A stretch of DNA of 64,000 nucleotides from Spirochaetota bacterium (GTDB lineage Bacteria > Spirochaetota > UBA4802 > UBA5550), in contig JBNKTL010000005.1 in NCBI GenBank assembly GCA_050298055.1, positions 34,149-98,148 on the forward strand, given 5' to 3'. Made by a program: the position numbers and the translations under genes. Numbering within the stretch: the first letter of the stretch is position 1; each line of letters begins with the position of its first letter. Of the stretch, positions 1,512-25,655 are shown piece by piece. The notes beneath the pieces are model-generated. The model was not told where the DNA came from. It ran no database searches and saw only the letters and a list, made by a program, of their open reading frames with translations.

Positions 1512-2507
1512 ATGAAATTTAAAATAAAAGAATATCAGAGCAGGTTCAGTATTAAATTCTCCGAGAGTTACTATGTCTACAGGAAAAAGCTGAGTAAGGC
1601 CTGGGACAGGTTTCTGGAGAAGGGTCATGAGAAAATGACCATAATGTTTATCCCGCACAACGAAAAGAACATATTCAATTTTCAGATATCAAAGTTTATC
1701 ATTTCATTTTTTATCATTCTGTTTTTCGTGGTCATCGCAACATCATCGTACGCGATTATCAAAAACAATGCTGTTAAACGGGAAGAGCAGCGGCTCCTGA
1801 TGACCTACGAGGATATCCGCTCACACCTTCTGAGGTTTGAAAAACTTACAAACAATATTGAAGAACAGATTGATGAACTTAAACCCGATATTGAAGATCT
1901 TTATGAATCTGCGGCAGGAACTGAAATTACCGAAAACCTCTGGACTCTTGCTGACTTTGAGAAAAAGGAACTGAGTGAACTTCTCAAGATGAGGAGCATA
2001 CTCCCCGAGGAGATTTTTACCATAAAGGAGATACAGAAAGACCTCATCTGCTCTACAAACACCATAAAGGCAATCAAGAACTTTATCAACGTAAGGAGTA
2101 AGGTCATCAAAGACACTCCGTCCATTGTCTCGAACCAGGGGCATATTACATCACTGTTCGGATGGCGGAGGTCTCCTTTCGGGCATGGCAGGGATTTTCA
2201 TACGGGCATTGATATTGCGGCGTCTCCGGGTACTCCCATACGGGCCACAGCACCCGGTGTGGTTGTTACCGCGGGCTGGAACGGCGGATACGGTTTCACG
2301 GTAAGGATCAAACACAAATATGGCTTTGAAACGATTTACGGACACTGCAGAAGCATTGATGTACAGATTGATCAGCAGGTCAGGAAGGGCGAGGTGATCG
2401 CGTATGTTGGTCAGACAGGTAACGCTACGGGTAACCACTGTCACTATGAGATCAGGCTTGGTGGAATTCCCATTAATCCCTATCCCTACATGAGCAGAGT
2501 CTGGTAA
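1512..2507 (+). CDS. M23 family metallopeptidase (LytM-like), membrane anchored
   Basis: C-terminal FHTGIDIAA...GYG...HYEIR motifs typical of peptidase M23, plus an N-terminal TM helix. The start could alternatively be the downstream Met at ~1636. Confidence 0.8.
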   Translation: MKFKIKEYQSRFSIKFSESYYVYRKKLSKAWDRFLEKGHEKMTIMFIPHNEKNIFNFQISKFIISFFIILFFVVIATSSYAIIKNNAVKREEQRLLMTYEDIRSHLLRFEKLTNNIEEQIDELKPDIEDLYESAAGTEITENLWTLADFEKKELSELLKMRSILPEEIFTIKEIQKDLICSTNTIKAIKNFINVRSKVIKDTPSIVSNQGHITSLFGWRRSPFGHGRDFHTGIDIAASPGTPIRATAPGVVVTAGWNGGYGFTVRIKHKYGFETIYGHCRSIDVQIDQQVRKGEVIAYVGQTGNATGNHCHYEIRLGGIPINPYPYMSRVW

Positions 2508-2577
2508 TATCCGTCATAAATTAAAATATCATAATATATTATGGCCGCTTATATTCTCATCATTGTGCCGGGTGTAA

Positions 2578-5500
2578 GTGAAAGTTACAGCTTATATAAA
2601 ACTGCTGTTTATCTCAGGATTTGTGTTTACACTGGTTGCCCTCTATTCCGAAGAGAGCGGATTTAAATCAAGCCTCCTTAAATTTATTGAAAAAAACTCT
2701 GTAAAAGATGAGACACTTGCCGGAGACCGGCCTTCTCAAAATGGCGAAAAGAAACCGGGTTCCGGTTTACTGCTTCCCGGTGAGAGTGTTCCCGAGTCTC
2801 TCGATTACAGGGAGAGTGACTGGTCAAATTATGTCATTACTCCCGCATACCGGGTGCAGGGCCTCACGGAAACCCCTCTTATCCTTTATGGGAGCGATGA
2901 TGTAAACGTTCTCACATACGGGTCCATGAAACTGAATCTGACCTACGGAAAGTCGGTATTTACCGATAAAAAGTATAAACAGTTTGACGATGACAAACCG
3001 CATTCAAGGGTCATTGACTCGGGATTTGTTCCCGAACAGGAACTCCAGCTTCATATTGAAGGAAAAACCGGAAGAAGGATGACTCTCTTTATCGATCACG
3101 ACAGCAGAAAAGAAGATAATATCTACAGGATGAATTACCGGGCCCTCAAAGATGATGAGATCATCCGGGACATCAACGCGGGTGAAATAGACATCAAATT
3201 CGACCATTCAAAGTACGCGGTCTATGACAACAACAGCGCCAAAGGGCTTGGATTGGACCTGACGTTGAGAAAGAACAGGCTGCAGGTAAAAACTTTCGGA
3301 AGTATCACTCTGGGAGAAACGGAAGTAGAATACTTCAGGGGAAATTCATCTCCCGGCAGCTTTAAATTGTCCGAATACCAGTATCTGAAGAGATCGTATT
3401 ATCAACTTGAACCATTCAGAAGATATGATAACCTGGGAAGTATACCGACCGGGTCCGCGTCATACACATCTCTGAATGTATTCACCTCGGCGCCCGCGGA
3501 CCCGGCAGGTTACTCTCCCTATTCGGTAAAAATCAATCCTTCCGGCTTTGAGATATACCTGGATGACCAGAACCAGTATAACAACTACAATGCCATCCGG
3601 CTCTCAATTGACAACGGGTACTACACAAAACTTTCATCGGGAGAGGATTACATCATAAACTATACTACTGGTGTCATTACTTTCAAAAACACCCTGCCTG
3701 AGAATTCCCGGGTGCTTGTTGCGTATACTCTGAAAAGCGGGTCAACATCGGACCCGGGTGTTATCGCGCCGGGGGACGCCGCTCATCCCGGGGGAAATTT
3801 TACCGGGAAAAACTGTGTTTTTATCAAGTATGGTTATTCCCTGGATGAAGATTCCGATGAAGACCTTGTTCTCGATGGGGGAGAGGACAGGAATGGTGAC
3901 GGGAAACTGAATCTTGATATCTACGAGATAAGGTCTTTTTACTATCTCGGGGACAAAAATATTCTTCCGGATAATTTTCTGCTGCGGTTTTATAATGAAA
4001 ACCGTGTAATGGAAACGGGTGATGCCGCTCTTCTGGGAAAATACAGCGTGGACTATACTGCGGGTCTCCTGAAGTTTAGATTAAGAGAGCCGTTCAGGCG
4101 GGTCGTGACGTCTCATTATTCCGCGTCCGCCGCGTCAACCATATACTCGGAGAGGCAGACCGGCAGTACGTATCTTGATTCGCACTATTCGGCGCATGTT
4201 GATTACTACCGGGAAGCCAGGAGCTTCAAGTTGAAGCACTCTAATGTTATCCACAACAGCGTAAGTATAAAGATAGACGGGAGCAAAATAAAGGAGTCTC
4301 TCTATTCCGTTGACCAGACTTCTGGCTTCCTTGTCTTTCTCGATCCCAACAACCCTTTGATAACAGGGGAGACTGTCATTGAGGTAAAATATGAGTATCT
4401 TCCCCTGGGATCGGAGAGCCAGTCATTTATCGGGGGTGTGAGGGGAGATTACACGGTAAACAGAAATCTCAACCTGGGAGGAAGTGTCCTCTTTACACGG
4501 TCCGGTTCCAGTGTTACCATTCCGGATATAAACAGCAGCCCCTCACAGACTGTGGTCCTTGAAGGTGATGCCACGCTCCACCTGGGAGAGAAAAAACTTG
4601 CCGACCTGGCCAATATCTTTACGGAGAACAAGAAAAAAAGCGTCCCCCTTGAAATAAATGCGTATGCTGAATACGCCAGGAGTTACAGGAATGTCAATAC
4701 CTTCGGTAAGGGACTTATTGATAACATGGAATCTATTGATGAGATAATCTCTATTTCCCTGTCGGAAAAAGACTGGATCCTCTCCTCAATGCCATCGGGA
4801 TATTCACCGTCTGACAGGGGACTTCTTTATTACTATTTCTACAGGAGACTTTCCAGTCCTGAAAAACTTGAGGGGACTTCATTTTCGGCAACGGCAGTGA
4901 GCTACTCCACAAAGCCGGGCCCTTTTAACGTGGCAACGGGACATGTGGCAAACAGCATTAAAAAGGAAACATCACAGAGGTCCCTGGTCTTTGACTTTGA
5001 CATGTCGGGGGCAGGCAATGTCTCCGTGGCTACGAGGAGGCTCTCAGACACGGCCGTGGATTTTTCTGGTCTTCAGTATGTTGAGATCTGGTACAGGTAC
5101 GAAGGGACAGAGGATATTTCTCTTTCGGTTGATATAGGCAGTATCAACGAAGATTCCGACGGTGACTCGGTCCTCGATACGGAGGATGAAAACGGGAACA
5201 GTTTTCTCGATACCGATCCCGGGGCAGGTTATACGGAGGATACAGGTTACTCTTTCAATGGAAATAATGCAACAATTGTCGGTTCCGGTCCGGGGTTAAA
5301 TTCTGTCACCCGGGGGGATGGGATTCTCAACAGTGAAGACCTGAATGGAAACGGGACCCTTGAGACAGCGGAACAGGTTTACAGTATATCGCCGGTTACC
5401 CTGGCAGGAAACAGCAATGTATGGAAGAAGACAAGGATCTATATTGACCAGACGTCCCTGACCCAGAGTGAGATTGATCTCCTGAAGCAGGTTGAGGCGG

Positions 5501-8268
5501 TAAGGCTGAATATTGCAAACAGTACGGGGGCGTCGGGGAGGGTCTATATTGACAGCATTAAGTTTATCTCGTCGCGGTTCAGGAATGTCCAGATGAACGG
5601 TTCTGCCGCGGGCCCCGCGAATCTGGCCGTGACCCTGGTGAACAGTATAAATGATTCTGACTACAGGGCGGACGCCTTTATCTTTCAGCAGAGTGATGTT
5701 TATACATCCCTCTACGGAGAAAAGAACAGCAGTGAACTCTCCAGGGAGACGGAATCCGCGCTGCAGCTTGAGTATAACATTACATCGGGCACAAATGTAT
5801 CCGTAACCAGGTCTTTCGCGCGTCCCCTGGACCTGAGGCATTACAAGACAATGAATCTCTGGTTTAACTACCGGGAAAGTTCCGGCGGTGAAACAATAGG
5901 AATAATACTGGGCTCGTCTGAGAATGACTATGTGGAATACAGGTTCTCCATGGATTATATGGATGTCTGGAGGGAGGTCAGGCTCCGTCTCAAAGAAGGT
6001 TCGGGAGGGGACGTTAATTCCTCGTCAACAACAGGAGAACCTGATATGAAGAGGATCAGGTATATGAAGGTGGTGATATATGGAAATGCCGGGGACAGCG
6101 GTAAGATATGGCTGAACGACACGTATGTCTCTGAGCCGGAAACATTGAAGAGCAGTGCCCGCTGGTATGAAGGTGAACTGAAAATTAAGAGGCCCCTGTA
6201 TCGGACCGATTCCGGAACACCCATCCTTTCCGATATCAGTATCAAATACATTCACAAAGGGCATGGAGCGCAGTTCAGCACAATCGGAAAGAGCAACACG
6301 GATATTGATGAGAGCCACAACCAGGTTTTCTCATCATTCAGGATACTTCCCAACATGGAGACACGGCTGGACTATACAAGGGAAAAAACAAAAACAGACA
6401 GTTTAAATGAAGACGTCAACGAGGAGAAGAGAGGAGAGTCAATAAAAAACAGCTTTTACTTTATGACGGATTATAAATCATCAACAAGCGGTGTACCCAG
6501 TGTTGTCATATCCTACAAGCATGATAATTACAAGAATGTTATTGAAGAGGATATTACCGGTTATGATATAGACAGAAACAGGGGGAGAGTTGTCCATACG
6601 CCGGTTATTGCTATAACTGAAAATCTCGATAACTTTCTCTTTGGGAAGCTTACCACAAAACTTCTTCTTAACATGATCTTTAAAGAAGAGGATGTGAAGA
6701 GAAGTTCGCAGGATATTGACAGCAGCACGCTGTCCGGTTATGTATCTCTCCGGGAGAAGGAGAAGAGACAGAAATCTGATGCTACACTGTTTGTTACCTA
6801 TACCAGCAGGTATTTTTATATAAAGCCTGAGCTGAACATTAAATCGGAAGAGCTGGTGGATACCGCGGGGAAGGAGAATCTCCCGGACACGGAAATTGTC
6901 AGCGATGTACGGGGAGGATATCATGTTCCCTTTGTTTATAGTGACAGTCTCAGGTTTGTGGAAAGAAACAGGAAAGCTTTATGCGCCATTGGCCTTGTTG
7001 ACGGTTATGTAACCCCTGAATATAAACTCGACCTGAGTTATCTTGAAAACAGGTTCAGGGATTATGATGATTCAGAACTGCAGTCAGCGCAGGAGTACAG
7101 GAGGGCTAAAGACGCGAAGAGCCTTATTATGTCGGAAATATCACTGCCGGTGAACCTGAGAAAAATCAACAGCCTCCAATTTGTTAAGAACCTTAACCTC
7201 TCATATATGCGGAGTATTTACTTTTTTGAAAATGATATACCCTATGAAGGCGAAAGCAAGGGCCCCTTCAATGAAGATTACGGGATAAACAGGTCGCTGT
7301 TCGGTAATCTTGGGACCGGGTTAAACTTATTCAGGTACTATCCCGGATATTTTTTCAGGGGAAGGGATAATTACTCAAAGGGAAGAGACTATGTCTATGG
7401 CAGGGACAACCGGGAGCTTACCTTCCCCTCGGGTGATTCTGTGACTGATTACAACAACCAGCTCCGGCTGATAAACAACTTTTCCCTGAATTTCATGATG
7501 GATTTTAATCTCCTGACATTTGATTCAGGGGCGGGGATCAACCAGGTTAATGAACGGCAGCAGGTGAATGGTATCCCCCAGCAGATCATCACAAGGAACT
7601 TCAATACGGGAATTGACCTGAACCTGATGAAGGTCTTCAGTTTTGGATTTTTCAGGGGCAACAGGCTGGGTATTCCTCACCACTCTGCCAATTTAAAACT
7701 GGGATATACCTACAGCAACAACATGATCATTACATCCAATATTGAAGAGAATACCTATAAGCCGAGTCTCGGTCTGACCTTTAAAAGGGACAGGTCTCTC
7801 ATAGGATTGAAGGCCGGGATTGAAATGAGAAGGAAAAAGAGCAGGGAATTCATATCACCGGACGAGAGTTCCCGGTCAGACAGTGATGATATCTATATTG
7901 ACAATATGCCGGATAATTCCCTGTTAAGCGAGATTGACAACGGTTATAATCTTTCCCTCTTATATGAAACAGATGTGAACTGGCTCTTCAATCTCTTTTC
8001 AGAGATCTACCGGCTTTCTTCTCAGCCGATATTTTCTCTTGAGTATAACCTGGTCCTGAACAGGTATGATTACAGGTCAACCGTTTCCCCTGAACCATAT
8101 GACCTCCATATGATTAAAGGAAAGCTCACACTGGATCTTCATAAAAACATCCAGGGAGGACTCACTTCACGGTGGGCCCTTGAGAGATTCAGGAACAGGG
8201 AAACGGATGGGATAAGCAGGGAGGTTTTTTCCTATGAACTGGGAATGAACTTTACTCTCATTTTTTGA
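2578..8268 (+). CDS. giant (1896 aa) secreted outer-membrane beta-barrel protein with Ca-binding thrombospondin-type-3-like DxDxDG repeats; function unknown
   Basis: GTG start followed by a signal-peptide-like N-terminus. Acidic DSDGDSVLDTEDENGNSFLDTD and DLNGNGTLE repeats lie around nt 5150-5360. The C-terminal ~600 aa has alternating amphipathic strands and ends in ...NFTLIF, the aromatic C-terminus typical of OMP barrels. Confidence 0.65.
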   Translation: MKVTAYIKLLFISGFVFTLVALYSEESGFKSSLLKFIEKNSVKDETLAGDRPSQNGEKKPGSGLLLPGESVPESLDYRESDWSNYVITPAYRVQGLTETPLILYGSDDVNVLTYGSMKLNLTYGKSVFTDKKYKQFDDDKPHSRVIDSGFVPEQELQLHIEGKTGRRMTLFIDHDSRKEDNIYRMNYRALKDDEIIRDINAGEIDIKFDHSKYAVYDNNSAKGLGLDLTLRKNRLQVKTFGSITLGETEVEYFRGNSSPGSFKLSEYQYLKRSYYQLEPFRRYDNLGSIPTGSASYTSLNVFTSAPADPAGYSPYSVKINPSGFEIYLDDQNQYNNYNAIRLSIDNGYYTKLSSGEDYIINYTTGVITFKNTLPENSRVLVAYTLKSGSTSDPGVIAPGDAAHPGGNFTGKNCVFIKYGYSLDEDSDEDLVLDGGEDRNGDGKLNLDIYEIRSFYYLGDKNILPDNFLLRFYNENRVMETGDAALLGKYSVDYTAGLLKFRLREPFRRVVTSHYSASAASTIYSERQTGSTYLDSHYSAHVDYYREARSFKLKHSNVIHNSVSIKIDGSKIKESLYSVDQTSGFLVFLDPNNPLITGETVIEVKYEYLPLGSESQSFIGGVRGDYTVNRNLNLGGSVLFTRSGSSVTIPDINSSPSQTVVLEGDATLHLGEKKLADLANIFTENKKKSVPLEINAYAEYARSYRNVNTFGKGLIDNMESIDEIISISLSEKDWILSSMPSGYSPSDRGLLYYYFYRRLSSPEKLEGTSFSATAVSYSTKPGPFNVATGHVANSIKKETSQRSLVFDFDMSGAGNVSVATRRLSDTAVDFSGLQYVEIWYRYEGTEDISLSVDIGSINEDSDGDSVLDTEDENGNSFLDTDPGAGYTEDTGYSFNGNNATIVGSGPGLNSVTRGDGILNSEDLNGNGTLETAEQVYSISPVTLAGNSNVWKKTRIYIDQTSLTQSEIDLLKQVEAVRLNIANSTGASGRVYIDSIKFISSRFRNVQMNGSAAGPANLAVTLVNSINDSDYRADAFIFQQSDVYTSLYGEKNSSELSRETESALQLEYNITSGTNVSVTRSFARPLDLRHYKTMNLWFNYRESSGGETIGIILGSSENDYVEYRFSMDYMDVWREVRLRLKEGSGGDVNSSSTTGEPDMKRIRYMKVVIYGNAGDSGKIWLNDTYVSEPETLKSSARWYEGELKIKRPLYRTDSGTPILSDISIKYIHKGHGAQFSTIGKSNTDIDESHNQVFSSFRILPNMETRLDYTREKTKTDSLNEDVNEEKRGESIKNSFYFMTDYKSSTSGVPSVVISYKHDNYKNVIEEDITGYDIDRNRGRVVHTPVIAITENLDNFLFGKLTTKLLLNMIFKEEDVKRSSQDIDSSTLSGYVSLREKEKRQKSDATLFVTYTSRYFYIKPELNIKSEELVDTAGKENLPDTEIVSDVRGGYHVPFVYSDSLRFVERNRKALCAIGLVDGYVTPEYKLDLSYLENRFRDYDDSELQSAQEYRRAKDAKSLIMSEISLPVNLRKINSLQFVKNLNLSYMRSIYFFENDIPYEGESKGPFNEDYGINRSLFGNLGTGLNLFRYYPGYFFRGRDNYSKGRDYVYGRDNRELTFPSGDSVTDYNNQLRLINNFSLNFMMDFNLLTFDSGAGINQVNERQQVNGIPQQIITRNFNTGIDLNLMKVFSFGFFRGNRLGIPHHSANLKLGYTYSNNMIITSNIEENTYKPSLGLTFKRDRSLIGLKAGIEMRRKKSREFISPDESSRSDSDDIYIDNMPDNSLLSEIDNGYNLSLLYETDVNWLFNLFSEIYRLSSQPIFSLEYNLVLNRYDYRSTVSPEPYDLHMIKGKLTLDLHKNIQGGLTSRWALERFRNRETDGISREVFSYELGMNFTLIF

Positions 8269-8272
8269 TGTG

Positions 8273-10450
8273 TCATTTTTTAAAAACAGAATTAAGGACT
8301 TCTTCAAGTTCGTCTATCCTGTACGGTTTGGCAATAACTCCCTTAAATCCATGTTCTTTGTAGTTGCCCATAAGTTGATCATTTGAGTATCCGCTGGACA
8401 CAATTGCAGTTACGCCGGGATCATATTTTTTGAGGACCTCGAGGGTCTCCTGTCCGCCCATACCGCCGTGTATTGTCAGGTCCATTATGACCGCGTCGAA
8501 CTTCTTTCCATGTACATCGGCCCTCTTGTACTCAAAAACAGCATCCCTGCCGTCCTTAACGCATTCCACTTCACACCCGAGTTTTTCAAGCATTCGTGAA
8601 CCGACTTTCAGTATCATCTCTTCATCATCCAGGAGAAGTATTCTGCGGTTTATGAGATTAACATCCCCTGTTTCCGGTATCTTTGCGATAATGCCGTCAC
8701 CAACAGCCGGAAGATAGATGGTGAAAACCGTGCCTTCCCCGGCATCTGACTTTACATGGATGAGGCCGTTGTGCTCTTTAATAATTGAGTGTGCAATTGT
8801 AAGTCCAAGTCCCGTACTGTTCTCTTTCTTTGTGAAGTAGGGATCGTATATCCTATCGATAATTTCACTTTTTATTCCCGGTCCGGTGTCGGCTATACTT
8901 ATTTTTACACAGGGTCCTGTAAGTTCCGGCGGAAGCATGCCGGTTTCTGTTTTAAGATTTACCGCTGTTATTGTGAGCACTCCTCTCCGGTCCATAGCCT
9001 GGCATGCGTTGAGGATTATGTTATAAAATGCCCGGTTTATCTGTCCTTCATCGGCAAGCAGAGTATAAATATTATCAGGAATATCAATATTCTTTTCTAT
9101 CATTGTGCCGTTTAATATCAGGTTAACGGATTCATTGATCATTTTCGAAACCGGGATATTTTTTCTTATGGGCTTACCGCCTTTTGAAAACGCAAGAAGC
9201 TGAGTTGTCAGTTCCTTTGCCTTGTTCGATGCGGTCTCCGCTTCGTTGAGGATATCATATATTTCGTGGCTTTTATCAATTCCGGTTATGGCCAGGGAGA
9301 GATTTCCCGTAATGGCTGTGAGAAGGTTGTTAAAGTCGTGGGCAATTCCTCCCGCGAAAACTCCCAGTGCCTCTATCCGGGTCTGCTTAAAGTGTTCCTC
9401 CTCTTTCCTTGCCCGGGTCAGTTCATTCCGTGCTCTTTCCATGGTATTTTCAAGTCTTCCGATGTAGATAAAGAAAAAGAAAAAGACCATGAGTCCCAGT
9501 ACTCCCGAGATTGTAATAAGGAGTAATACGAGGTTCTTTATGGAAGCCATGTCCTCACTGATATCTGCCAGGACAAACAGGTAACCGATGTGACGGTTGC
9601 CCGCATCCATCATGGGAATAAATCCTCCCCGGTAAATCTGCTTTTCATGTTCGATTTCATCCTTGAGAGTGAGAGTCTTCGGTTTTTGAATATTCATTAT
9701 ATGCCGGTAATAGAAATCAAGGTTTTCCGGGATAAAGGTGAGTGTTCTGTCGGTGATTGCGTAATCTTTCAGCAGGTTCCAGCGTCCTTTCCTTCCGGTC
9801 ATGATAAGCCCCTCTTCCCAGAGGTTCTTTTTCAGAAGAGATTTCTTAATGCTGAGTATTGTTTCCACATCCAGGACTTTTTTAATATGGTAAAGAATCT
9901 CTACTATCTCGGCATCCAGTTCAATATATCCTGCAACCTTCCCGCGGAGCAAAAAAGGTTTTACAACCCGCAATGAGTAGGTCCCCAGGGGGCCCAGCTC
10001 TACGCCGTAGCCTGTTTTTTTCAGGATAACGGCATGTTTCAATGTAAACCTGTCAATGATATCACCATGCCTGTTATGGTTGTGGACCCTTAAAAAGCAT
10101 CTTTTGTCGGGATTGATAAAGGAGAGTCCTGTTATTCCAAATTCACTGTTTAATTCCCGGTAGAGGTTTACTGTTTTTTCATACAAAAGCTCCCTCTCTC
10201 CGCTTCTCCACGCGGAAATAATCTCCCTGCTGTTCTCGATTTGCCTGATAAGCCCGTTAAATGAAACAGCCTTCTGGGACAACTTCTCCAGGTAGAGGTT
10301 GTTTGCCTTCTCCAGCAGAGAAGTGATTTTACTATCCAGGTTATCATTTTTTACGTAGTAGAATCCCGCAATGGATGAAATGAGAAGTATCACCAGGGAG
10401 AAAAGAACAGGGAATAATATTTTTGCTTTTATTTTCTGATACCTGTGCAT
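8273..10450 (-). CDS. hybrid sensor histidine kinase / response regulator with periplasmic sensor domain
   Basis: N-terminal TM, periplasmic domain, second TM, HisKA (HDFNNLLTAITGN) and HATPase_c (DTGPGI, GTGLGL) motifs, and a C-terminal receiver domain (LLLDDEE...D...K). The ORF track extends to 10552, but that extension overlaps a hairpin repeat. The internal Met at 10450 (MHRYQKIKAKIL, directly followed by the TM helix) is preferred as start. Confidence 0.8.
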   Translation of the reverse strand: MHRYQKIKAKILFPVLFSLVILLISSIAGFYYVKNDNLDSKITSLLEKANNLYLEKLSQKAVSFNGLIRQIENSREIISAWRSGERELLYEKTVNLYRELNSEFGITGLSFINPDKRCFLRVHNHNRHGDIIDRFTLKHAVILKKTGYGVELGPLGTYSLRVVKPFLLRGKVAGYIELDAEIVEILYHIKKVLDVETILSIKKSLLKKNLWEEGLIMTGRKGRWNLLKDYAITDRTLTFIPENLDFYYRHIMNIQKPKTLTLKDEIEHEKQIYRGGFIPMMDAGNRHIGYLFVLADISEDMASIKNLVLLLITISGVLGLMVFFFFFIYIGRLENTMERARNELTRARKEEEHFKQTRIEALGVFAGGIAHDFNNLLTAITGNLSLAITGIDKSHEIYDILNEAETASNKAKELTTQLLAFSKGGKPIRKNIPVSKMINESVNLILNGTMIEKNIDIPDNIYTLLADEGQINRAFYNIILNACQAMDRRGVLTITAVNLKTETGMLPPELTGPCVKISIADTGPGIKSEIIDRIYDPYFTKKENSTGLGLTIAHSIIKEHNGLIHVKSDAGEGTVFTIYLPAVGDGIIAKIPETGDVNLINRRILLLDDEEMILKVGSRMLEKLGCEVECVKDGRDAVFEYKRADVHGKKFDAVIMDLTIHGGMGGQETLEVLKKYDPGVTAIVSSGYSNDQLMGNYKEHGFKGVIAKPYRIDELEEVLNSVFKK

Positions 10451-10520
10451 ATAAGTATTCTCTTCTTGTTGCTGTTCAGTTATATGATTATAATCAACCT
10501 GTTTACTAAAATACCAAAAA

Positions 10521-10553
10521 TATATCCCTGCCGCCTTGAGTGGCGGTGACATA
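10521..10553. repeat. family H hairpin repeat copy 2 (degenerate: ATATCCCTGCCGCC-TTGAGT-GGCGGTGACATAT)
   Basis: Same GCCGCC/GGCGG core and ATAT..GACATAT flanks as the other copies. It lies in the divergent region upstream of the kinase gene. Confidence 0.5.
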
Positions 10554-10953: not shown

Positions 10954-12771
10954 TCAGGCTTTGATCCTGAAATCACCCACTCTCTTCAGGAGCCCCTCCC
11001 GCTCTATCCGGTTCAGGAGGGGAAGCATATATTTTCTTGAGATATCAATGGCGTCTCTTGCGTCGGATATGGATATCTTCTCCATGGTGTCAAAAAGGTC
11101 CATGATCTTCTCTTTTGAGCTGTTGTAAACATCCCTGTGGTAAATGATATTTCCATCCAGGCTGATGAGAAAATCCATCCTGATGAGTTCCTTGATTGTT
11201 TTTTTTCGCAGGTCGTCCTTCTCCCTGCTCAGTTCAATCCCTTTTGTGCTGCTTTCCAGTATTTCATCAAGGAGTTTCCTGCTTCCCTCGGGGAGGGTTT
11301 CCTCGGTTATGGAATCTCCCGAAAAGTACCTGCCGTCCTTTTCAATGATTGTATGCTCTTTCATTGCCAGGGGCAGGAGCTCCTTGCAGATTTCGGGGGA
11401 GATACCCGATGAATCGGATACCTCCCTGAGGTTAAGGCCGACTTTTTCCTTTATGGATTCCACAAGTGATTTTATTGAATTTTCATAATAGGCCGAGTTA
11501 AGAAGAAAGTCCTTTATCTTTATTATTTTTTTCTCTTCTTCCAGTTTCTTAATAAGCGCATCCATACTCTTTTCTGAATCTGGAAGCATCTTCATAAGGC
11601 GCTCCCTTGTGAGACAGTTAAATACGGAGAGATTGAATTCCACAATTTCAGGTTTTGTGATGTTTTGTAAAATTGAAAGGTTTTTTCTGACGGCCTTTTT
11701 CAACTTTGAATTATAATCACAGAGGACCACTTTTCCCCCGCCGATGACCCTGTATCCCCCGGGGTTTGTTATGACAAACGGCTGGCTGGTGGTGAAATAC
11801 CATTCCCTGTCGATCTTTATCCTTACGAGGTAGATACTCTTTTCTTCAACCTCTTCTAGTATGATAAGTTTTCCTTTGACATCCGAGGTCCCTACCAGAA
11901 TTTCAATTCCCAGGTTGTTCTTGATCTCTTTGGACCTGTCAAGTATCTGGACCCTTGCCACAAACTCCCTGGACTCTATGAAAAAGTTTTTCTTGAAAAG
12001 GATCCATCCCCTTTTGATCTCGTTTACGGAAACACCGGATAGGTTCAGGGCCGTTCTCTGTGACGGGTTGCCTTCTTCTACTTCATTGAAGTGGGTCTCA
12101 ATCCGCTTTATTCTCGCGTCCTTTTTTATGGGGAGGATATGCACAGTATCGTCTTCGTTGAATATGCCGTTCTTCTGTGTCCCGGTTATAACAGTTCCGT
12201 GGCCCTTTGACGCGAAAACCCTGTCTATAAAGAGATAGGGCTTGTCCGTCTTTGTGATCTTTGAGAGCCGGCGGAGGTTTTCTACGATGAGGTTTTTCAA
12301 ATTCTCAATTCCTTCACCGGTTTTTGTCGATGTGGCGGTAATATCCGATCCCTCATAGAGGGTCCCGGAAAGCTTCTCCTCAACCTCGGCCTTCACGAAT
12401 TCCACCATCTCTTCATCTGCGAGATCAACCTTGTTCAGAACAACAATCATCCTCTCGATTCCCAGGATTTGTAAAACTCTGAAGTGGTCCTCTGTCTGGG
12501 GCATCCAGCCGTCATCTACCGCGATAACAAGAAGTGCAAGATCCACACCCCAGGCCCCCACGACCATGTTCCTGATAAAACGCTCATGGCCCGGAACATC
12601 GATGATACTCACTGTGCCAAACTTCGGATATACGATACTTGCAAAACCGATATCAATGGTCATCTCCCTCTCTTTTTCTTCGGGGAGCCTGTCCGTGTCA
12701 ATCCGGGTAAGTGAATATATCAGAGAGGTTTTGCCATGGTCGATGTGACCGGATGTTCCAACAATATACAT
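10954..12771 (-). CDS. selB: selenocysteine-specific translation elongation factor SelB
   Basis: N-terminal GTPase domain (GTSGHIDHGKTSL...DRLPEEKEREMTIDIGFA) followed by a long C-terminal extension with winged-helix-like domains, giving the 605 aa typical of SelB. Confidence 0.9.
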   Translation of the reverse strand: MYIVGTSGHIDHGKTSLIYSLTRIDTDRLPEEKEREMTIDIGFASIVYPKFGTVSIIDVPGHERFIRNMVVGAWGVDLALLVIAVDDGWMPQTEDHFRVLQILGIERMIVVLNKVDLADEEMVEFVKAEVEEKLSGTLYEGSDITATSTKTGEGIENLKNLIVENLRRLSKITKTDKPYLFIDRVFASKGHGTVITGTQKNGIFNEDDTVHILPIKKDARIKRIETHFNEVEEGNPSQRTALNLSGVSVNEIKRGWILFKKNFFIESREFVARVQILDRSKEIKNNLGIEILVGTSDVKGKLIILEEVEEKSIYLVRIKIDREWYFTTSQPFVITNPGGYRVIGGGKVVLCDYNSKLKKAVRKNLSILQNITKPEIVEFNLSVFNCLTRERLMKMLPDSEKSMDALIKKLEEEKKIIKIKDFLLNSAYYENSIKSLVESIKEKVGLNLREVSDSSGISPEICKELLPLAMKEHTIIEKDGRYFSGDSITEETLPEGSRKLLDEILESSTKGIELSREKDDLRKKTIKELIRMDFLISLDGNIIYHRDVYNSSKEKIMDLFDTMEKISISDARDAIDISRKYMLPLLNRIEREGLLKRVGDFRIKA

Positions 12772-12828
12772 AGAGTCTCCTGAAACAGGTTATTGTCTCC
12801 TCTTGGCGCGGGTGATCGGTTTTCCCTG

Positions 12829-13236
12829 CTACTTGACGCCGCGGCTGATAAAAAAGCTGCTGTATTTTTTATCGGATCCCACAACATGGTCCTGGAGCCA
12901 GTCCACCAGGAAAGCAAGAAGTTCAAACGCATCAACACCTTTTCCTTCATCGAGGTCTTTTTTCAAGGATAAGACTTTTTTACTCAGCTCTTCATGTTCT
13001 TTCTTATGTGAGGCTTTATCAAAATAATGATGTTTTTCAAAAAGCTTCTCTTCATTATCAAAGTGATAATGAGTATAATCCAGCAGCTCCTGGATTATTT
13101 CAGATATCTTATCGGGACTGCCTCCCCCGGTAAGTACAGCATGAGCATTGTTAATAAGCTCGATAATTTTTTTGTGCTGAGCGTCCAGAGTATCAATCTC
13201 AACACGGAAGTTATCTTCCCATTCAAAAAAAGTCAT
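12829..13236 (-). CDS. hemerythrin-like (bacteriohemerythrin) protein
   Basis: WxDxxxV...IDxQHKxxxxLIN...HF..EE...H..F...H..F...WL..HI..D..Y spacing of His/Glu iron ligands characteristic of bacteriohemerythrins. 135 aa. Confidence 0.75.
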   Translation of the reverse strand: MTFFEWEDNFRVEIDTLDAQHKKIIELINNAHAVLTGGGSPDKISEIIQELLDYTHYHFDNEEKLFEKHHYFDKASHKKEHEELSKKVLSLKKDLDEGKGVDAFELLAFLVDWLQDHVVGSDKKYSSFFISRGVK

Positions 13237-13323
13237 ATAGTTACATCCTTTAATTTTTGTTTTTTATATTGTAACTACTCAGTTGTATGGCTGAAAATAA
13301 ACATATTTAATAAAATGCCAATA

Positions 13324-13359
13324 TTATGTCCCCGCCGCCGAAGGCGGTGGGGACATAAT
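13324..13359. repeat. family H hairpin repeat copy 3 (TTATGTCCCCGCCGCC-GAAG-GGCGGTGGGGACATAA)
   Basis: 16-bp stem (one G:T) with a 4-nt loop, between selA and the hemerythrin gene. Confidence 0.7.
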
Positions 13360-13429
13360 GGTTATCTTTTGTTCATTAACATATCTATTTTTATACATAG
13401 CTGAATAGTAACTTTATATTTTATAAAAA

Positions 13430-14815
13430 CTACGTAAACCTCTCGAGAAGTTCGTCAATGACAGATGCAATGTAGGAGATATCATCATCAAAAACAGTCA
13501 TAAAATCAAGAGTATACCTGTCGTTTATAATAGAACCTACAACCGGAAGGTTCAGTGAGATCATCCTGTTGTAGAGGTCATCCGGTTTTACTCCGGGAAG
13601 AAGTAATTCTACACCGGCGCTTTCAACTTCCAGGGTGGGAAGCGTACCGCCCCCGTAAGTGCTCATGGTGCTGACCCTTTTTACCCGGTCCTTTTTCAGG
13701 GGATTTTTGATATTCCTCATGAGTCTTGTTATTTTCCCGGAAAGGGATTTCTTGTCCTGAAAAATTGTGCTCCAGAGGGGAAGGTCCTCATGTTCTCCGT
13801 TATCATACAAAAGGAGTGTTTCCTGGATGATATAGTAGGTGATCTTATCCACCCTGATCATCCGCATGAGGGGATTTTTCCTGAGTCGGACAATCAGCTC
13901 CTTTTTCCCGATAATAATGCCCGCCTGGCATCCTCCCAGAAGTTTGTCTCCGCTGAAACATACCAGGTCCGCGCCCTGGGAAAGTTCCTGACCCACTGTC
14001 TGTTCAAAATTTGCCGGAAGTTCGCTGCCGGTAACGAGGTTACCGCTTCCCAGGTCCCTGACCAGGAGAATATGGTCGGTTTTCAGCTCTGAGAGTTCTT
14101 TTAACGATGGAGACCGGGAAAACCCCTCTATTTTATAATTGGACCGGTGTGCGGAGAATATCATTGATGTGTTCTCTGTTATACTGTTTTTATAATCATC
14201 CAGTTCGGTGATATTTGTTGTTCCCGTTTCAACAAGATGTGCCCCGCTCTGGTTCATGATATCGGGTATCCTGAATCCGCCCCCTATCTGGATCAGTTCA
14301 CCCCGGGAAACCACTGCTTCTCTCCCCCGGGCAAATTCATTGAGGATCAGGAACACCGATGAAGCGTTGTTATTGACGATGAGGGCGTCTTCGGCAGATG
14401 TGAGGTTGCAGATAAGTTCCTCTGCGAACCCGCCTCTTTTGCCCCTTTTCCCAGTTGTGAGCTGGTATTCCAGGTTGCAGTATCCTGAAAGTGCTTCGGC
14501 CGCCCGGGAGAAGATCTCCTTCCCGAGGGGTGACCTTCCGAGATTGGTGTGGATTATGACACCGGTACAGTTTATGACCTTCTGGAGTTTGTGGAGTTTT
14601 TTGATTCTGCAGTTTTTCACTATTGCCGGAACAAGCTTCTCTACCGGTACATCAGCGCCGTCCTGGATTTTTTTCCTGAAAAGGTCAATGACTTTTCGGA
14701 CGATACCGGTTACAAGCGAATGTCCTATTTCAGGAATAAAAGCAGCTATTTCATCATTCTGCAGCAGCTTTTCCACCTGGGGGATGTTGCGTAGGTTGTT
14801 CTGTGTGTCGTTCAT
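13430..14815 (-). CDS. selA: L-seryl-tRNA(Sec) selenium transferase SelA
   Basis: 461 aa. The INCTGVIIHTNLGRSPLG motif around the PLP-lysine region is typical of SelA. It is co-located with selB and tRNA-Sec. Confidence 0.9.
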   Translation of the reverse strand: MNDTQNNLRNIPQVEKLLQNDEIAAFIPEIGHSLVTGIVRKVIDLFRKKIQDGADVPVEKLVPAIVKNCRIKKLHKLQKVINCTGVIIHTNLGRSPLGKEIFSRAAEALSGYCNLEYQLTTGKRGKRGGFAEELICNLTSAEDALIVNNNASSVFLILNEFARGREAVVSRGELIQIGGGFRIPDIMNQSGAHLVETGTTNITELDDYKNSITENTSMIFSAHRSNYKIEGFSRSPSLKELSELKTDHILLVRDLGSGNLVTGSELPANFEQTVGQELSQGADLVCFSGDKLLGGCQAGIIIGKKELIVRLRKNPLMRMIRVDKITYYIIQETLLLYDNGEHEDLPLWSTIFQDKKSLSGKITRLMRNIKNPLKKDRVKRVSTMSTYGGGTLPTLEVESAGVELLLPGVKPDDLYNRMISLNLPVVGSIINDRYTLDFMTVFDDDISYIASVIDELLERFT

Positions 14816-18505: not shown

Positions 18506-19120
18506 ATGAACAAAAAATACATCATAAAAGCAAACTCCCTCTCAAAGAGGTTCGGGAGGCAGCGGCTTTTTAAAGAGATTAACTTCCGGGTTGAAACCGG
18601 GGGTTCTCTGGCTGTGACCGGGCCCAACGGGTCGGGGAAATCCACCCTGGTCCAGATACTGGCGGGGCTGCAGGCCCCCACAAAGGGGAAAGTGGAGTTC
18701 AGGCAGAATGACAGGGTGCTGGAGAAATATTCCCTGAACGCTCACTACGGATTTATCAGCCCCCTTATCAATCCCTACGATGAACTTACGGGAATTGAGA
18801 ATATCCGTTTCTCACTGAAAGGGGCCCCTGATGAGGAGAAGATCAAATCGCTCCTTGAGGACTTTAAACTCTTTGAACAGAGGAACAGGATCGTGCGGCA
18901 CTACTCATCGGGCATGAAACAGAGGCTCAAGTTCATCATATCCGTCATTAACGATCCCCCTGTTCTTTTTCTCGATGAACCGGGGACAAATCTTGACAGG
19001 GAGGGGAAGGAGACAATCTATTCATATATAAAGAACATAAGGAAAGATAAGCTGATTGTTATGGCCACCAACGAGAAGGAAGAGGTCAGGCTCTGCGGCG
19101 GGGAGGTCAGGATTGCTTGA
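18506..19120 (+). CDS. ccmA: heme exporter ATP-binding protein CcmA
   Basis: ABC ATPase (GPNGSGKSTL Walker A, LSGGMKQRL-like signature). Small size and position before ccmBC. Confidence 0.8.
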   Translation: MNKKYIIKANSLSKRFGRQRLFKEINFRVETGGSLAVTGPNGSGKSTLVQILAGLQAPTKGKVEFRQNDRVLEKYSLNAHYGFISPLINPYDELTGIENIRFSLKGAPDEEKIKSLLEDFKLFEQRNRIVRHYSSGMKQRLKFIISVINDPPVLFLDEPGTNLDREGKETIYSYIKNIRKDKLIVMATNEKEEVRLCGGEVRIA

Positions 19121-19775
19121 GGAGATTATCAGGAACCTGAAAAAGGACCTCAGGGTTGAGTTCAGAAACCGCTCGGCCCTGAATATTTCCCTGGCCTTCG
19201 CGGGGATATCGACCCTTGCAATAAGCCTGGCAACCGGCGGCGTCCCCTTTTCAGTGAAGCTCCAGGCGGTTCTCCTCTGGATCATCATGTTCTTCAGCGC
19301 CATGAACGGGCTGGCCCACATTTTCACCCGGGAAGAGGAGGAGAGGACCTCCCTTTTTCTCAGGCTAAATACCTCCCTGGAGTCCATATTCCTCTCAAAG
19401 CTGGTTTTTAACTTCCTTTTTTTTCTGGTTTTACAGATCGTCGTGTGCCCTCTCTATGTCTTTTTCCTGCAGATTGAGGTGAAATCGCCTCTTCTCTTCC
19501 TGCTCGTAGTCTTTTCAGGGGGGATATCCATATCCTCTGCCACCACAATACTGGGGGCCATGGTCTCCCGGGCGGGAGGCAAGGGGTCCCTTTTCACGGT
19601 GATCTCCTTTCCCATTATTCTGCCGGTCCTCTGGATCGCCATCTCCTCCACATCAGAGGCCCTGGAGAAAGGGGACGCGTCCGGGTACGGCACCATCCTT
19701 TTTTTCCTTGCATTTTCAGGTGTAATAATATCTTTATCATTTTTACTGTTCAGGTATATCTGGGTTGAAGAATGA
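19113..19775 (+). CDS. ccmB: heme exporter membrane protein CcmB
   Basis: Polytopic membrane protein directly between ccmA and ccmC. The ORF track begins at 19056, overlapping ccmA by 65 nt. The TTG at 19113 overlapping the ccmA stop is a more likely start, but that is uncertain. Confidence 0.7.
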   Translation: MLEEIIRNLKKDLRVEFRNRSALNISLAFAGISTLAISLATGGVPFSVKLQAVLLWIIMFFSAMNGLAHIFTREEEERTSLFLRLNTSLESIFLSKLVFNFLFFLVLQIVVCPLYVFFLQIEVKSPLLFLLVVFSGGISISSATTILGAMVSRAGGKGSLFTVISFPIILPVLWIAISSTSEALEKGDASGYGTILFFLAFSGVIISLSFLLFRYIWVEE

Positions 19776-20440
19776 AAATATCAAGAATTGCATACCTCCT
19801 GATGCCGGTATCTATCTACATGGCATTCATGTTCGCGCCCCCGGCTGAGATTCTCGGGGACGCAAGCCGGATAATCTATTTTCATGTGCCCCTGGCATGG
19901 GGGTCCGCGCTGGCTTTTATTTATTCGGGGATTGTTTCGATTCTCCACCTGGTTGATAAAGATAAGAAGTACATGCTGCTGGACGAGAAGGCGTATAATT
20001 CCGCCCATGTGGGGATGCTCTATACAATTCTCGCACTGATTACCGGCTCCATCTGGGCCAAGGTCAGCTGGGGGAGCTACTGGAACTGGGACCCCCGTCA
20101 GACCTCCATAACAGCGCTTGTCCTCATATACATCGCCTATTTCAGCCTCTGGTCCGCACTCTCCGGCAACGCGAACAGGGGGAGGATCTGTTCATCCTAC
20201 CTGATCTTTGCCATGGTTACCGTTCCCTTCTTTGTTTTCATTATACCGAGGATGTATCCCACATTGCACCCTGATCCGATTATTAACCCGGAGAAAAAAC
20301 TCAAACTTGACGTATCAATGAGGATAACCCTGCTTACGGCAATGGTTGCGTTTACTCTACTCTATACATATCTTTTGAGTCTCATGAACAGACTGTCACG
20401 GGCAGAGAATACATTTAAGGACAAGTTTGATGAAATATAG
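19772..20440 (+). CDS. ccmC: heme exporter protein CcmC
   Basis: WGSYWNWDPRQT tryptophan-rich WWD motif and flanking conserved His residues. 222 aa. Confidence 0.85.
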   Translation: MKISRIAYLLMPVSIYMAFMFAPPAEILGDASRIIYFHVPLAWGSALAFIYSGIVSILHLVDKDKKYMLLDEKAYNSAHVGMLYTILALITGSIWAKVSWGSYWNWDPRQTSITALVLIYIAYFSLWSALSGNANRGRICSSYLIFAMVTVPFFVFIIPRMYPTLHPDPIINPEKKLKLDVSMRITLLTAMVAFTLLYTYLLSLMNRLSRAENTFKDKFDEI

Positions 20441-21144: not shown

Positions 21145-21150
21145 ACGAAC

Positions 21151-23334: not shown

Positions 23335-23390
23335 CCTGTTAAGGTGAGAACAGCCGGGCTGAGAGGGAATAAAGAGGGACGGGACACAGG

Positions 23391-24245: not shown

Positions 24246-24247
24246 AG

Positions 24248-25564: not shown

Positions 25565-25655
25565 ATTTTCCATTACATCACTTCGTTCCACATGATGACA
25601 GGGTCTTCAGCTTGAAACTCGAAACTTGGAACTAAACTTATAACGGATAGATTTT

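What the first reader, a model, noticed from the sequence alone, without database searches (positions are those of the whole stretch)
1512..8268. M23 peptidase followed by a 1896-aa outer-membrane barrel protein with thrombospondin-type-3-like calcium-binding repeats
The giant ORF has a signal peptide, an enormous predicted extracellular/periplasmic region with DxDxDGxxD acidic repeats and Gly/Tyr/Asn-rich segments, and a C-terminal beta-barrel ending in Phe. It resembles giant OM translocon/adhesin-like barrels (its size invites comparison with SprA/Sov-type or LptD/TamB-type proteins). I could not place it in a known family by eye, and the predicted taxonomy does not favour a T9SS. It is convergent with the hybrid kinase, with overlapping stops and no terminator.
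Basis: inference. Interest (0 to 1): 0.5.

Follow-up and report, generated by a model that had tools for sequence, protein, structure and literature searches.

The report
Divergent SprA-type secretion pore in a spirochaete
The 1896-residue outer-membrane protein is a highly diverged relative of SprA/Sov, the giant barrel that forms the pore of the type 9 secretion system, and it sits in an uncultured spirochaete lineage, outside the bacterial group to which that system is thought to be confined.

Summary
Both ORFs are real. An M23/LytM peptidase lies at 1512-2507. A 1896-aa secreted protein ending in Phe lies at 2578-8268.

The giant protein matches no curated family (Pfam, NCBIfam, PDB sequences). 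It is nevertheless a clear SprA/Sov homologue:
- hhalign against annotated SprA gives probability 99.9%, E about 1e-35 to 1e-37, over residues 103-1281.
- An intermediate family (candidate division FCPU426) links the whole length, 110-1896, to SprA.

The "thrombospondin-like" acidic motifs are few. They align to conserved SprA acidic loops.

The gene occurs in at least 113 species-level genomes, nearly all labelled as uncultured Spirochaetota MAGs. More distant relatives occur in other Spirochaetia, Elusimicrobiota and FCPU426, all annotated "hypothetical". The M23 gene is adjacent in 65 of 74 loci, but not in one sub-clade or in distant relatives. The kinase is incidental.

The most likely function is a capped outer-membrane protein-export pore. 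Whether the rest of a T9SS exists in these genomes could not be tested. I rate it a new variant of a known kind, interest about 0.65.

The parts
1512..2507 (+). Membrane-anchored M23/LytM peptidoglycan endopeptidase (331 aa). It has a TM helix at res 62-83, a helical/coiled middle region, and a catalytic domain at res 229-323. It is the usual upstream neighbour of the SprA-like gene and is possibly co-transcribed with it.
   Evidence: PF01551, E 7.8e-34. Best NCBIfam hits are Pgp6/Pgp3/DipM/EnvC-type, all far below their cut-offs. PDB relatives are 3slu, 6muk and TagE. HxxxD, YGH and HxH motifs are present. A full-length homologue (57-78% identity) lies directly upstream on the same strand in 65 of 74 related loci.
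2508..2577 (+). 70-nt spacer between the M23 stop and the GTG start of the giant ORF.
   Evidence: No terminator-like hairpin and no + strand promoter-like site was found here. This is compatible with co-transcription but does not prove it.
2578..8268 (+). SprA/Sov-family giant outer-membrane beta-barrel protein (1896 aa, GTG start).
2578..2649 (+). Signal peptide (res 1-~24; the only hydrophobic segment in the protein).
   Evidence: Kyte-Doolittle scan. Met1 and the N-terminal pattern are conserved. The cleavage site was not predicted with a dedicated tool.
2650..2901 (+). Poorly conserved, low-confidence linker (res 25-108), probably periplasmic.
   Evidence: pLDDT below 50 over res 19-29, 41-78 and 88-107. 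The consensus is mostly 'x' in this stretch.
2902..3372 (+). N-terminal set of barrel strands (res 109-265, nine strands by DSSP). It contains the most conserved motif of the family, E(I/V)IR(D/E)INAGEIDIKF (res 194-208).
   Evidence: DSSP on the N-half model. Invariant columns. Aligns to SprA '...EDDLVQSIEAGNVSL...'.
3373..4425 (+). Insertion 1 (res 266-616). It holds three small beta modules with the motif Y-x-(I/V)-(N/D)-x-T-x-G-x-(I/L/V)-x-F at res 358-369, 489-500 and 576-587. It is presumed to contribute to the extracellular cap.
   Evidence: DSSP. Motif positions. The third module aligns to SprA 'IDYTVDYQLGQVTIL'. There is a recurrent weak hit to DUF2460 (phage distal tail protein) at res ~540-595 in 22 of 26 members.
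4426..4692 (+). Middle barrel-type hairpins (res 617-705, four long strands), ending in the AEYARSY motif.
   Evidence: DSSP. Aligns to SprA 'VGLRGEYAFSDDFKLGATFL...NAEYAQ'.
4693..6096 (+). Insertion 2 (res 706-1173). It carries the conserved motifs IDNMES, DWILSSMP and KPGPFNVATG, followed by two CBM-like beta-sandwich domains.
5140..5373 (+). Acidic, probably Ca2+-binding loops (res 855-932: NEDSDGDSVLDTEDENGNSFLDTD ... NSEDLNGNGTLE).
   Evidence: Motif scan. Nearly invariant in the family. Aligns to SprA 'IISEDIIPNRRLNTED' and 'FPDTEDLDGSSTVQTQN'. Calcium binding is inferred, not shown.
6097..8265 (+). C-terminal barrel region (res 1174-1896), about 27 long strands, ending ...NFTLIF with an invariant terminal Phe (an outer-membrane beta-signal-like end).
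   Evidence: C-half model, pLDDT 88, with its DSSP strand list. F1896 is invariant. The sequence link to the SprA C-terminus exists only through the FCPU426 intermediate; the direct hhalign test was negative.

Best explanation
The 1896-aa ORF encodes a strongly diverged member of the SprA/Sov family. SprA/Sov is the giant single-chain outer-membrane beta-barrel that forms the protein-conducting translocon of the type 9 secretion system in Bacteroidota.

Shown: the protein is collinear with SprA from about residue 110 to its C-terminus. Barrel strands come from three separate stretches (109-265, 617-705, 1174-1896). Two large insertions lie between them and carry the SprA signature motifs, acidic loops and two CBM-like beta-sandwiches.

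Inferred: after Sec export and BAM insertion it forms a very large water-filled pore of about 36-40 strands. By analogy with SprA, the insertions would cap the pore on the outside. It would then serve as an outer-membrane exit channel for folded or partly folded periplasmic proteins.

Unknown: the carrier, the energy source and the cargo.

The upstream membrane-anchored M23 endopeptidase is the usual neighbour in this clade. It may be co-transcribed and may open the peptidoglycan locally. That coupling is clade-specific synteny, not a demonstrated partnership.
For: Structure:
- AF2 models are confident (pLDDT 88.0 and 82.7).
- Foldseek places four SprA chains first (8gl8_A 8.9e-41, 8gl6_A 1.3e-40, 6h3i_A 2.5e-36, 6h3j_A 7.4e-27; prob 1.0; about 1500 alignment columns). 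The next hit is at 5.3e-5.

Sequence:
- hhalign of the family against annotated SprA from Chlorobiales, Chloroherpetonaceae and Bacteroidetes gives probability 99.9%, E 1.3e-35 / 7.5e-38, over 1043-1076 columns at 21-22% identity.
- The family against the FCPU426 group gives E 2.6e-77 over residues 110-1896. The FCPU426 group against SprA gives E 1.1e-57 over SprA 305-2441.
- The FCPU426 member P0198 carries Pfam SprA_N (4.7e-11). By phmmer it reaches proteins annotated 'T9SS outer membrane translocon Sov/SprA' (1.2e-24).

Conservation:
- Full-length homologues occur in at least 113 species-level genomes.
- Mean column identity is 52-55% along the whole length.

Support for a translocon-like role in non-FCB relatives:
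- In L087 the SprA-like gene is flanked by two PorV/PorQ-family genes.

SprA's role as a capped 36-strand translocon with a lateral opening is taken from PMC10994853.
Against: - No curated SprA model matches: Pfam SprA_N and TIGR04189 give nothing, even at E<=10 over 26 members.
- The C-terminal barrel shows no direct profile similarity to SprA.
- No other T9SS component or PorV-like gene was found in the 64-kb window or in the flanks of 84 related Spirochaetota loci. T9SS genes are usually scattered, so this says little.
- The literature restricts T9SS to Bacteroidota or the FCB superphylum.
- The cap, the lateral opening and a closed barrel were not seen directly. The protein had to be modelled in two halves and no coordinates were available.
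- The function is inferred only from homology at about 13-22% identity.
Confidence: 0.7

Rival explanations
1. It is the translocon of a complete but so far unrecognised T9SS in these spirochaetes. GldKLMN/PorKLMN-type motor and ring, PorV-type carriers and cargo with C-terminal sorting domains would be encoded elsewhere in the genome.
For: It is a full-length SprA homologue. T9SS genes are normally dispersed, so their absence near the gene is expected. PorV/PorQ-family genes exist outside the FCB group (Elusimicrobiota; Brachyspira). Two of them flank an SprA-like gene in L087.
Against: Nothing T9SS-like was found in the window or in the flanks of 84 loci. Published surveys found T9SS only in Bacteroidetes/FCB. 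No Spirochaetota protein appears among the best 120 PorV-like hits. Divergence is extreme, and the protein is about 500 aa shorter than SprA.
Confidence: 0.25
2. It has been recruited to a non-secretory envelope role, such as outer-membrane biogenesis, LPS or lipoprotein handling, or a structural envelope element. In that case it would act together with the M23 endopeptidase in cell-wall or envelope remodelling.
For: The M23 gene is adjacent in 65 of 74 loci with no terminator between the two genes. Distant SprA-like genes sit next to lptF-lptG (L084, L086, L087) or next to a family-9 glycosyltransferase (L088, and the Chlorobiales SprA in L089). The protein appears to be a conserved housekeeping-type gene, single-copy in the related genomes examined except one MAG with two loci.
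Against: M23 adjacency is lost in one sub-clade, where an aconitase-like gene lies upstream, and in all distant relatives examined. The unrelated convergent DHH and SpoIIE genes are conserved almost as often (62 and 54 of 84 loci). So the pattern looks like inherited gene order. The only characterised members of the family are protein translocons.
Confidence: 0.2
3. It is a calcium-binding adhesin or surface protein with thrombospondin-type-3 repeats, anchored by a conventional C-terminal barrel.
For: There are acidic DxDxDG-like motifs at res 437, 857 and 921. CBM-like beta-sandwich domains are present.
Against: There are only three such motifs and no TSP_3 hit. They align to acidic loops inside SprA. 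Barrel strands are spread over the whole sequence rather than forming a C-terminal anchor. The whole chain is collinear with SprA.
Confidence: 0.03
4. It is an LptD-, BamA/TamA- or TamB-type envelope biogenesis protein.
Against: These matches cover 141-276 residues, like any large barrel, against about 770 residues for SprA. No LptD/OstA, POTRA, Omp85 or TamB/DUF490 family is hit.
Confidence: 0.02

Closest known systems
SprA (Flavobacterium johnsoniae; PDB 6H3I, 6H3J, 8GL6, 8GL8) / Sov (Porphyromonas gingivalis), the T9SS outer-membrane translocon
   Same: - Giant single-chain outer-membrane barrel, with strands contributed from the N-terminal, middle and C-terminal parts.
- Large insertions between the strand sets.
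- Shared motifs: ...EAG.(I/V).., Y.VD...G.(I/V/L).F, AEYA, ID(D/N)(F/M)E(G/S), W.L.S.P, (R/K)GP(Y/F)N, and (T/S)EDL(D/N)G acidic loops.
- CBM-like sandwiches.
- Collinear over essentially the full length.
   Different: - About 13-22% identity.
- About 500-570 residues shorter (1896 aa against about 2400-2470).
- Lacks the first ~300 residues of the Chlorobiales SprA.
- Escapes PF14349 and TIGR04189.
- Found in Spirochaetota rather than the FCB group.
- No T9SS partner is known.
- Usually preceded by an M23 peptidase gene.
Unannotated SprA-like proteins of candidate division FCPU426, Elusimicrobiota and other Spirochaetia (e.g. P0198, P0189, P0257, P0140)
   Same: Same superfamily. The family's N-half profile hits them at E 1e-69 to 1e-249. 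hhalign to the FCPU426 group gives E 2.6e-77 over residues 110-1896. They are also annotated 'hypothetical protein'.
   Different: Lengths differ (about 1680-2200 aa). The FCPU426 members have an N-terminal fn3 extension, and some reach the Pfam SprA_N threshold. Their neighbours are lptFG, comF-like and PorV-like genes rather than M23.
LytM/M23 endopeptidases and activators (Neisseria NMB0315 3SLU, Helicobacter/Campylobacter Csd/Pgp, EnvC, DipM)
   Same: The upstream gene has a complete M23 domain with zinc-ligand and catalytic motifs. Like EnvC/DipM-type proteins, it has an N-terminal anchor followed by a helical region.
   Different: It is far below every NCBIfam equivalog cut-off. Its substrate and role are unknown. 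No known M23 protein is a T9SS component.

Membership tests
SprA/Sov family (protein family) | Match to the curated family models (Pfam PF14349 SprA_N; NCBIfam TIGR04189 cell surface protein SprA) | tested here: not met
   There was no hit at E<=0.1 for the window protein. There was none at E<=10 for 26 family members.
SprA/Sov family (protein family) | Statistically supported homology to bona fide SprA sequences | tested here: met
   hhalign against four annotated SprA proteins: probability 99.9%, E 1.3e-35 / 7.5e-38, residues 103-1281. Full-length transitive link through FCPU426 proteins that carry SprA_N. The direct test on the C-terminal 657 residues was negative.
SprA/Sov family (protein family) | SprA fold: one giant outer-membrane beta-barrel (36 strands in SprA) built from dispersed strand sets | tested here: met
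SprA/Sov family (protein family) | Extracellular cap and lateral opening of the pore | not testable with these tools
The insertions that would form the cap are present and align to SprA.
Type 9 secretion system (the system) | Co-occurrence with core components (GldK/L/M/N or PorK/L/M/N, PorV, SprE/PorW, PorU/Z) in the same genome | tested here: inconclusive
   None was found among 53 window ORFs scanned against Pfam, three of them also against NCBIfam. None was among the conserved neighbours in 84 loci. A PorV HMM found nothing in the window or the flanks. Whole genomes could not be searched.
Type 9 secretion system (the system) | Cargo proteins with T9SS C-terminal sorting domains (TIGR04183 / TIGR04131) | not tested
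   This needs whole-proteome scans of the MAGs. No such domain appeared in the genes seen here.
Type 9 secretion system (the system) | Host belongs to Bacteroidota or the FCB superphylum | tested here: not met
   All but one of the 80 listed related loci are from MAGs labelled Spirochaetota, Spirochaetia or Leptospirales, or in one case 'uncultured bacterium'. They include a 3.16-Mb chromosome and a 4.8-Mb contig. The exception is labelled 'Bacteroidetes'. The flanks carry Leptospira-type families (DUF1577, LIC10012_N).
Thrombospondin type 3 repeat proteins | Tandem DxDxDGxxDxxD repeats / Pfam TSP_3 | tested here: not met
   Three loose motifs and one strict match. No TSP_3 hit.
LptD / Omp85 / TamB | Family profile hit, or a best fold match to these proteins | tested here: not met
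Peptidase M23 (upstream gene) | M23 domain with HxxxD and HxH zinc/catalytic motifs | tested here: met
   PF01551, E 7.8e-34. H230-D234, Y276-G-H278 and H309-x-H311.

The most novel reading that the evidence does not exclude
SprA-type giant barrels are not a Bacteroidota/FCB speciality. They would be a widespread, unrecognised class of outer-membrane export pore present in Spirochaetota, Elusimicrobiota and FCPU426. In these phyla the pore would work without the canonical GldKLMN-driven T9SS, or with a very different partner set. That would amount to a new secretion pathway in spirochaete-type envelopes, where the routes for surface and secreted proteins are poorly understood.
Probability: 0.3. 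Interest if true: 0.85.

Novelty: new variant of a known kind. Interest (0 to 1): 0.65.

Why it matters
SprA is described as the largest known single-chain beta-barrel. T9SS is described as restricted to Bacteroidota or the FCB superphylum.

Here a full-length SprA homologue is conserved in over a hundred spirochaete species-level genomes. Relatives occur in Elusimicrobiota and FCPU426. All are annotated 'hypothetical' and are invisible to the curated SprA models. The family profile recovers 1579 cluster representatives at E<=1e-3.

This leaves two possibilities. Either T9SS-like secretion reaches much further across bacteria than is thought, or the translocon barrel has an older or independent function.

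Both can be tested directly by scanning the complete MAGs for T9SS partners and cargo. The result also gives annotators a concrete family to model. In a search of the held full-text library I found no paper describing SprA homologues outside the FCB group. That is not proof that none exists.

Tried and rejected
- Curated profile searches on the giant ORF gave nothing useful. Pfam and NCBIfam returned only sub-threshold DUF2460/TIGR02217 hits.
- PDB sequence searches with the single sequence and with a 29-sequence profile gave nothing.
- PF27067 (YomF_N), precomputed for some homologues, is only a 'faint' hit and was not reproduced. I rejected it.
- Direct hhalign of the C-terminal 657 residues against the SprA C-terminus was negative (E 0.66). 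Only the FCPU426 intermediate bridges that region.
- A full-length structure was impossible because of the 1200-aa limit. The two halves were modelled separately, so closure of the barrel and an exact strand count could not be obtained.
It worked with 30 accepted sub-sequences.
- The search for T9SS partners was unproductive. No PorV-like ORF was found in the window or the flanks. There were no Spirochaetota names among the top 120 PorV relatives. No T9SS families appeared among the window ORFs.
- The hybrid kinase was rejected as a functional partner (14 of 78 loci).
- M23 was considered as an obligate partner and downgraded. It is absent from one sub-clade and from the distant relatives.
- Literature searches for SprA homologues or T9SS in Spirochaetota or Elusimicrobia found nothing relevant.
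- Lauber et al. 2018 (PMC6927815) is not held in the library.

Full report
**Observation.** The window has an ATG ORF at 1512..2507 (331 aa) and a GTG ORF at 2578..8268 (1896 aa) on the + strand. A convergent ORF lies at 8273..10552 on the - strand.

The first ORF is an M23/LytM peptidase (PF01551, E 7.8e-34). It has an N-terminal hydrophobic helix (res 62-83) and intact HxxxD, YGH and HxH motifs. Its closest solved relatives are generic M23 endopeptidases (3slu, 6muk, TagE, EnvC).

The convergent ORF is a dCache-HisKA-HATPase-receiver hybrid kinase. Its stop codon is 4 nt from that of the giant ORF, so the two do not overlap.

The giant ORF has one hydrophobic segment, at the N-terminus. It is rich in Ser/Gly/Asp/Asn/Tyr, has two Cys, and ends in ...NFTLIF.

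Only three [DN]x[DN]x[DN]G motifs exist (res 437, 857, 921). The 'thrombospondin-like repeat' description is therefore overstated.

**No curated family fits.** Pfam and NCBIfam give only sub-threshold hits to a phage distal-tail family, DUF2460/TIGR02217. PDB sequence searches with the single sequence and with a family profile return nothing. Scanning 26 family members at E<=10 still gives no SprA_N, TSP_3, LptD or Omp85 hit. It does give a recurrent weak DUF2460 hit at res ~540-595 in 22 of 26 members.

**Family and distribution.** The first protein search listed 120 homologues, nearly all full-length (about 1850-1930 aa), at 43-86% identity. All are unnamed or 'hypothetical protein', and nearly all named ones are Spirochaetota MAGs. 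The alignment is conserved along the whole length, with mean column identity 52-55%.

A scan of one genome per GTDB species found 113 loci. All but one of the 80 listed are from MAGs labelled Spirochaetota, Spirochaetia or Leptospirales, or in one case simply 'uncultured bacterium'. They include a 3.16-Mb chromosome and a 4.8-Mb contig. The exception is a contig labelled 'Bacteroidetes', which is probably mis-binned. The window itself matches GCA_050298995.1.

**Structure.** The protein exceeds the 1200-aa limit, so residues 1-1200 and 697-1896 were modelled separately with 73-sequence alignments. The models have pLDDT 82.7 and 88.0.

DSSP shows three sets of long strands:
- nine at res 109-265,
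- four at res 617-705,
- about 27 from res 1174 to the C-terminus.

Between these sets lie two large, mostly beta insertions.

Foldseek on the N-half puts four SprA chains on top (E 8.9e-41, 1.3e-40, 2.5e-36, 7.4e-27; prob 1.0; TMq up to 0.53; about 1500 alignment columns). The next hit is at 5.3e-5.

**Sequence-level confirmation.** A profile of residues 75-1200 (30 sequences) was searched against 1.84 billion cluster representatives. It found 1579 proteins at E<=1e-3, of which 607 are at E<=1e-30. Most of the full-length proteins among the 150 listed are 1550-2200 aa long.

One of them, P0198 (E 8.5e-80), carries Pfam SprA_N above threshold (4.7e-11). Its relatives are candidate division FCPU426 proteins. 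One of these is named by JGI 'motility/secretion related protein SprA/...CBM11'. phmmer from P0198 reaches 'T9SS outer membrane translocon Sov/SprA [Chlorobiales]' at 1.2e-24, and 'cell surface protein SprA' from Chloroherpetonaceae and Bacteroidetes.

A direct profile-profile comparison of the spirochaete family with those four annotated SprA proteins gives probability 99.9%, E 1.3e-35. A local re-run gives E 7.5e-38 over residues 103-1281 against SprA 302-1694.

The alignment pairs the family's best-conserved motifs with SprA motifs:
- EIIRDINAGEIDIKF with DLVQSIEAGNVSL
- SLYSVDQTSGFLVF with IDYTVDYQLGQVTIL
- AEYARSY with AEYAQ
- IDNMES with IDDFEGS
- DWILSSMP with NNWALGSPP
- KPGPFNVATG with RGPYNFNT
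- the acidic loops NEDSDGDSVLDTED and NSEDLNGNGTLE with SEDIIPNRRLNTED and DTEDLDGSSTVQ.

The C-terminal barrel alone shows no direct similarity. The chain is closed through the intermediate family. The spirochaete family against FCPU426 gives E 2.6e-77 over residues 110-1896. FCPU426 against SprA gives E 1.1e-57 over SprA 305-2441. The protein is therefore a full-length, collinear, very diverged SprA/Sov homologue.

**Strand count.** The two DSSP lists give 9 + 4 + 27 = 40 candidate transmembrane strands.

A parity argument applies, on three assumptions: the N-terminus is periplasmic, both big insertions are extracellular, and the C-terminus is periplasmic. It is satisfied by 40 strands. It is also satisfied by 36 if the four middle strands are not membrane-spanning. 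The first 'C-terminal' strand (KIWLNDTYVSE) may instead close the preceding sandwich.

I therefore give about 36-40 strands, the same size class as the 36 of SprA. SprA is described as the largest known barrel. A full-length model is needed to settle the number.

**Genomic context.** A full-length M23 homologue (57-78% identity) lies directly upstream on the same strand in 65 of 74 loci with enough flank. In the window there is no terminator-like or + strand promoter-like site in the 70-nt spacer.

Three observations weaken a functional link:
- The convergent DHH and SpoIIE genes downstream are conserved almost as often (62 and 54 of 84 loci).
- A sub-clade of 8 loci has a divergent aconitase-like gene upstream in place of M23.
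- Distant relatives lack M23 altogether.

The link therefore looks like inherited gene order, possibly with co-transcription, rather than a proven functional pair. The hybrid kinase is incidental (14 of 78 loci).

The remainder of the window encodes:
- selenocysteine synthesis and incorporation (SelA, SelB),
- cytochrome c maturation,
- haem synthesis,
- multihaem cytochromes,
- Wood-Ljungdahl enzymes.

It has no T9SS-related families.

**Partners.** T9SS genes are normally scattered, so the local absence of them is uninformative.

In a distant SprA-like locus (L087, an unclassified 'bacterium' MAG), two PorV/PorQ-family genes flank the SprA-like gene. PorV/PorQ proteins are annotated in Elusimicrobiota and in Brachyspira.

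A PorV HMM built from 106 of these proteins found nothing in the window or in the spirochaete flanks. No Spirochaetota protein is named among the best 120 PorV relatives. Whole genomes could not be searched with the available tools.

**Mechanism.**
- Shown: SprA homology and fold class, a secretory N-terminus, an outer-membrane-type C-terminus, and conservation.
- Inferred from the characterised family (PMC10994853): a very large pore capped outside by the insertions, used to pass proteins from the periplasm to the cell surface.
- Not known: the carrier, the energy input, the cargo, and whether a lateral opening exists.
- M23 may locally cleave peptidoglycan to accommodate the complex. This is speculation.

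**Comparison and novelty.** The closest known protein is SprA/Sov. This protein shares the fold, the motifs and the collinear architecture. It differs in five ways:
- identity of only about 13-22%,
- a chain about 500 residues shorter,
- failure of every curated SprA model,
- a host phylum outside the FCB group,
- an M23 neighbour.

Published surveys and reviews state that T9SS is confined to Bacteroidetes/FCB. My searches found no report of SprA homologues in Spirochaetota or Elusimicrobia.

I classify it as a new variant of a known kind. The family identity is firm. The system it belongs to is open.

Noticed in passing
L086:7484-16062, L084:5858-17592, L087:3434-11482: In distant SprA-like loci from Elusimicrobia, the FCPU426-like group and an unclassified 'bacterium' MAG, the giant gene lies next to lptF-lptG. 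It is followed by a ComF-like phosphoribosyltransferase gene. The same gene order recurs across three lineages.
   Followed up: partly
L087:1937-3427 and L087:13208-15040: Two PorV/PorQ-family genes flank an SprA-like gene in a non-FCB MAG. One is 496 aa. The other is fused to TPR repeats. NCBI names the 496-aa one PorV/PorQ, but the SprA-like gene is annotated 'hypothetical'.
   Followed up: partly
L088:6158-7219 and L089:6745-7761: A family-9 glycosyltransferase (heptosyltransferase-type, LPS core) gene lies just upstream of an SprA-like gene (L088, with one small ORF between) and of an annotated Chlorobiales SprA gene (L089).
   Followed up: no
window 4180-4365 (res ~540-595 of the giant ORF): There is a recurrent sub-threshold match to the phage/GTA distal tail protein family (DUF2460/TIGR02217) in 22 of 26 family members. 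It falls on the 'Y-x-VD-x-x-x-G-x-(I/L/V)-x-F' beta module, which SprA also has. That module may be related to a phage-tail domain.
   Followed up: partly
window 42674-63049: A Wood-Ljungdahl gene set is present: formate-THF ligase, FolD, CODH, ACS, CdhD-like subunits, a pterin-binding methyltransferase, MTHFR and a 1492-aa flavin/Fe-S oxidoreductase. This suggests an acetogenic or CO-metabolising spirochaete.
   Followed up: no
window 36808-41866: An IS200-like Y1 transposase gene (36808-37398, - strand) lies next to a 500-aa ORF with no Pfam hit. After that come two multihaem cytochrome genes with MtrC/MtrF-like domains. This could be an extracellular electron-transfer module.
   Followed up: no
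window 10954-14815 and 18506-30465: SelB and SelA (selenocysteine incorporation) flank a hemerythrin gene. Further on are a Ccm system I cytochrome c maturation cluster and haem biosynthesis genes (HemA, HemC, HemD, HemB, HemL-like).
   Followed up: no
L037 and L082: One MAG (MFD04716.bin.2.40) carries two SprA-like loci on different contigs, and both have M23 upstream. This is either a paralogue pair or a mixed bin. The L037 copy has a frameshift, since its match length is not a multiple of 3.
   Followed up: no
L083: A contig labelled 'Bacteroidetes bacterium ADurb.Bin145' carries the spirochaete-type gene (52% identity) with the M23 gene upstream. It is probably a mis-binned spirochaete contig.
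   Followed up: no
window 8273-10552 (-): The mechanical ORF for the hybrid kinase is 759 aa. The gene called in the matching NCBI record is 725 aa, so the real start is probably 34 codons downstream of the first ATG.
   Followed up: no
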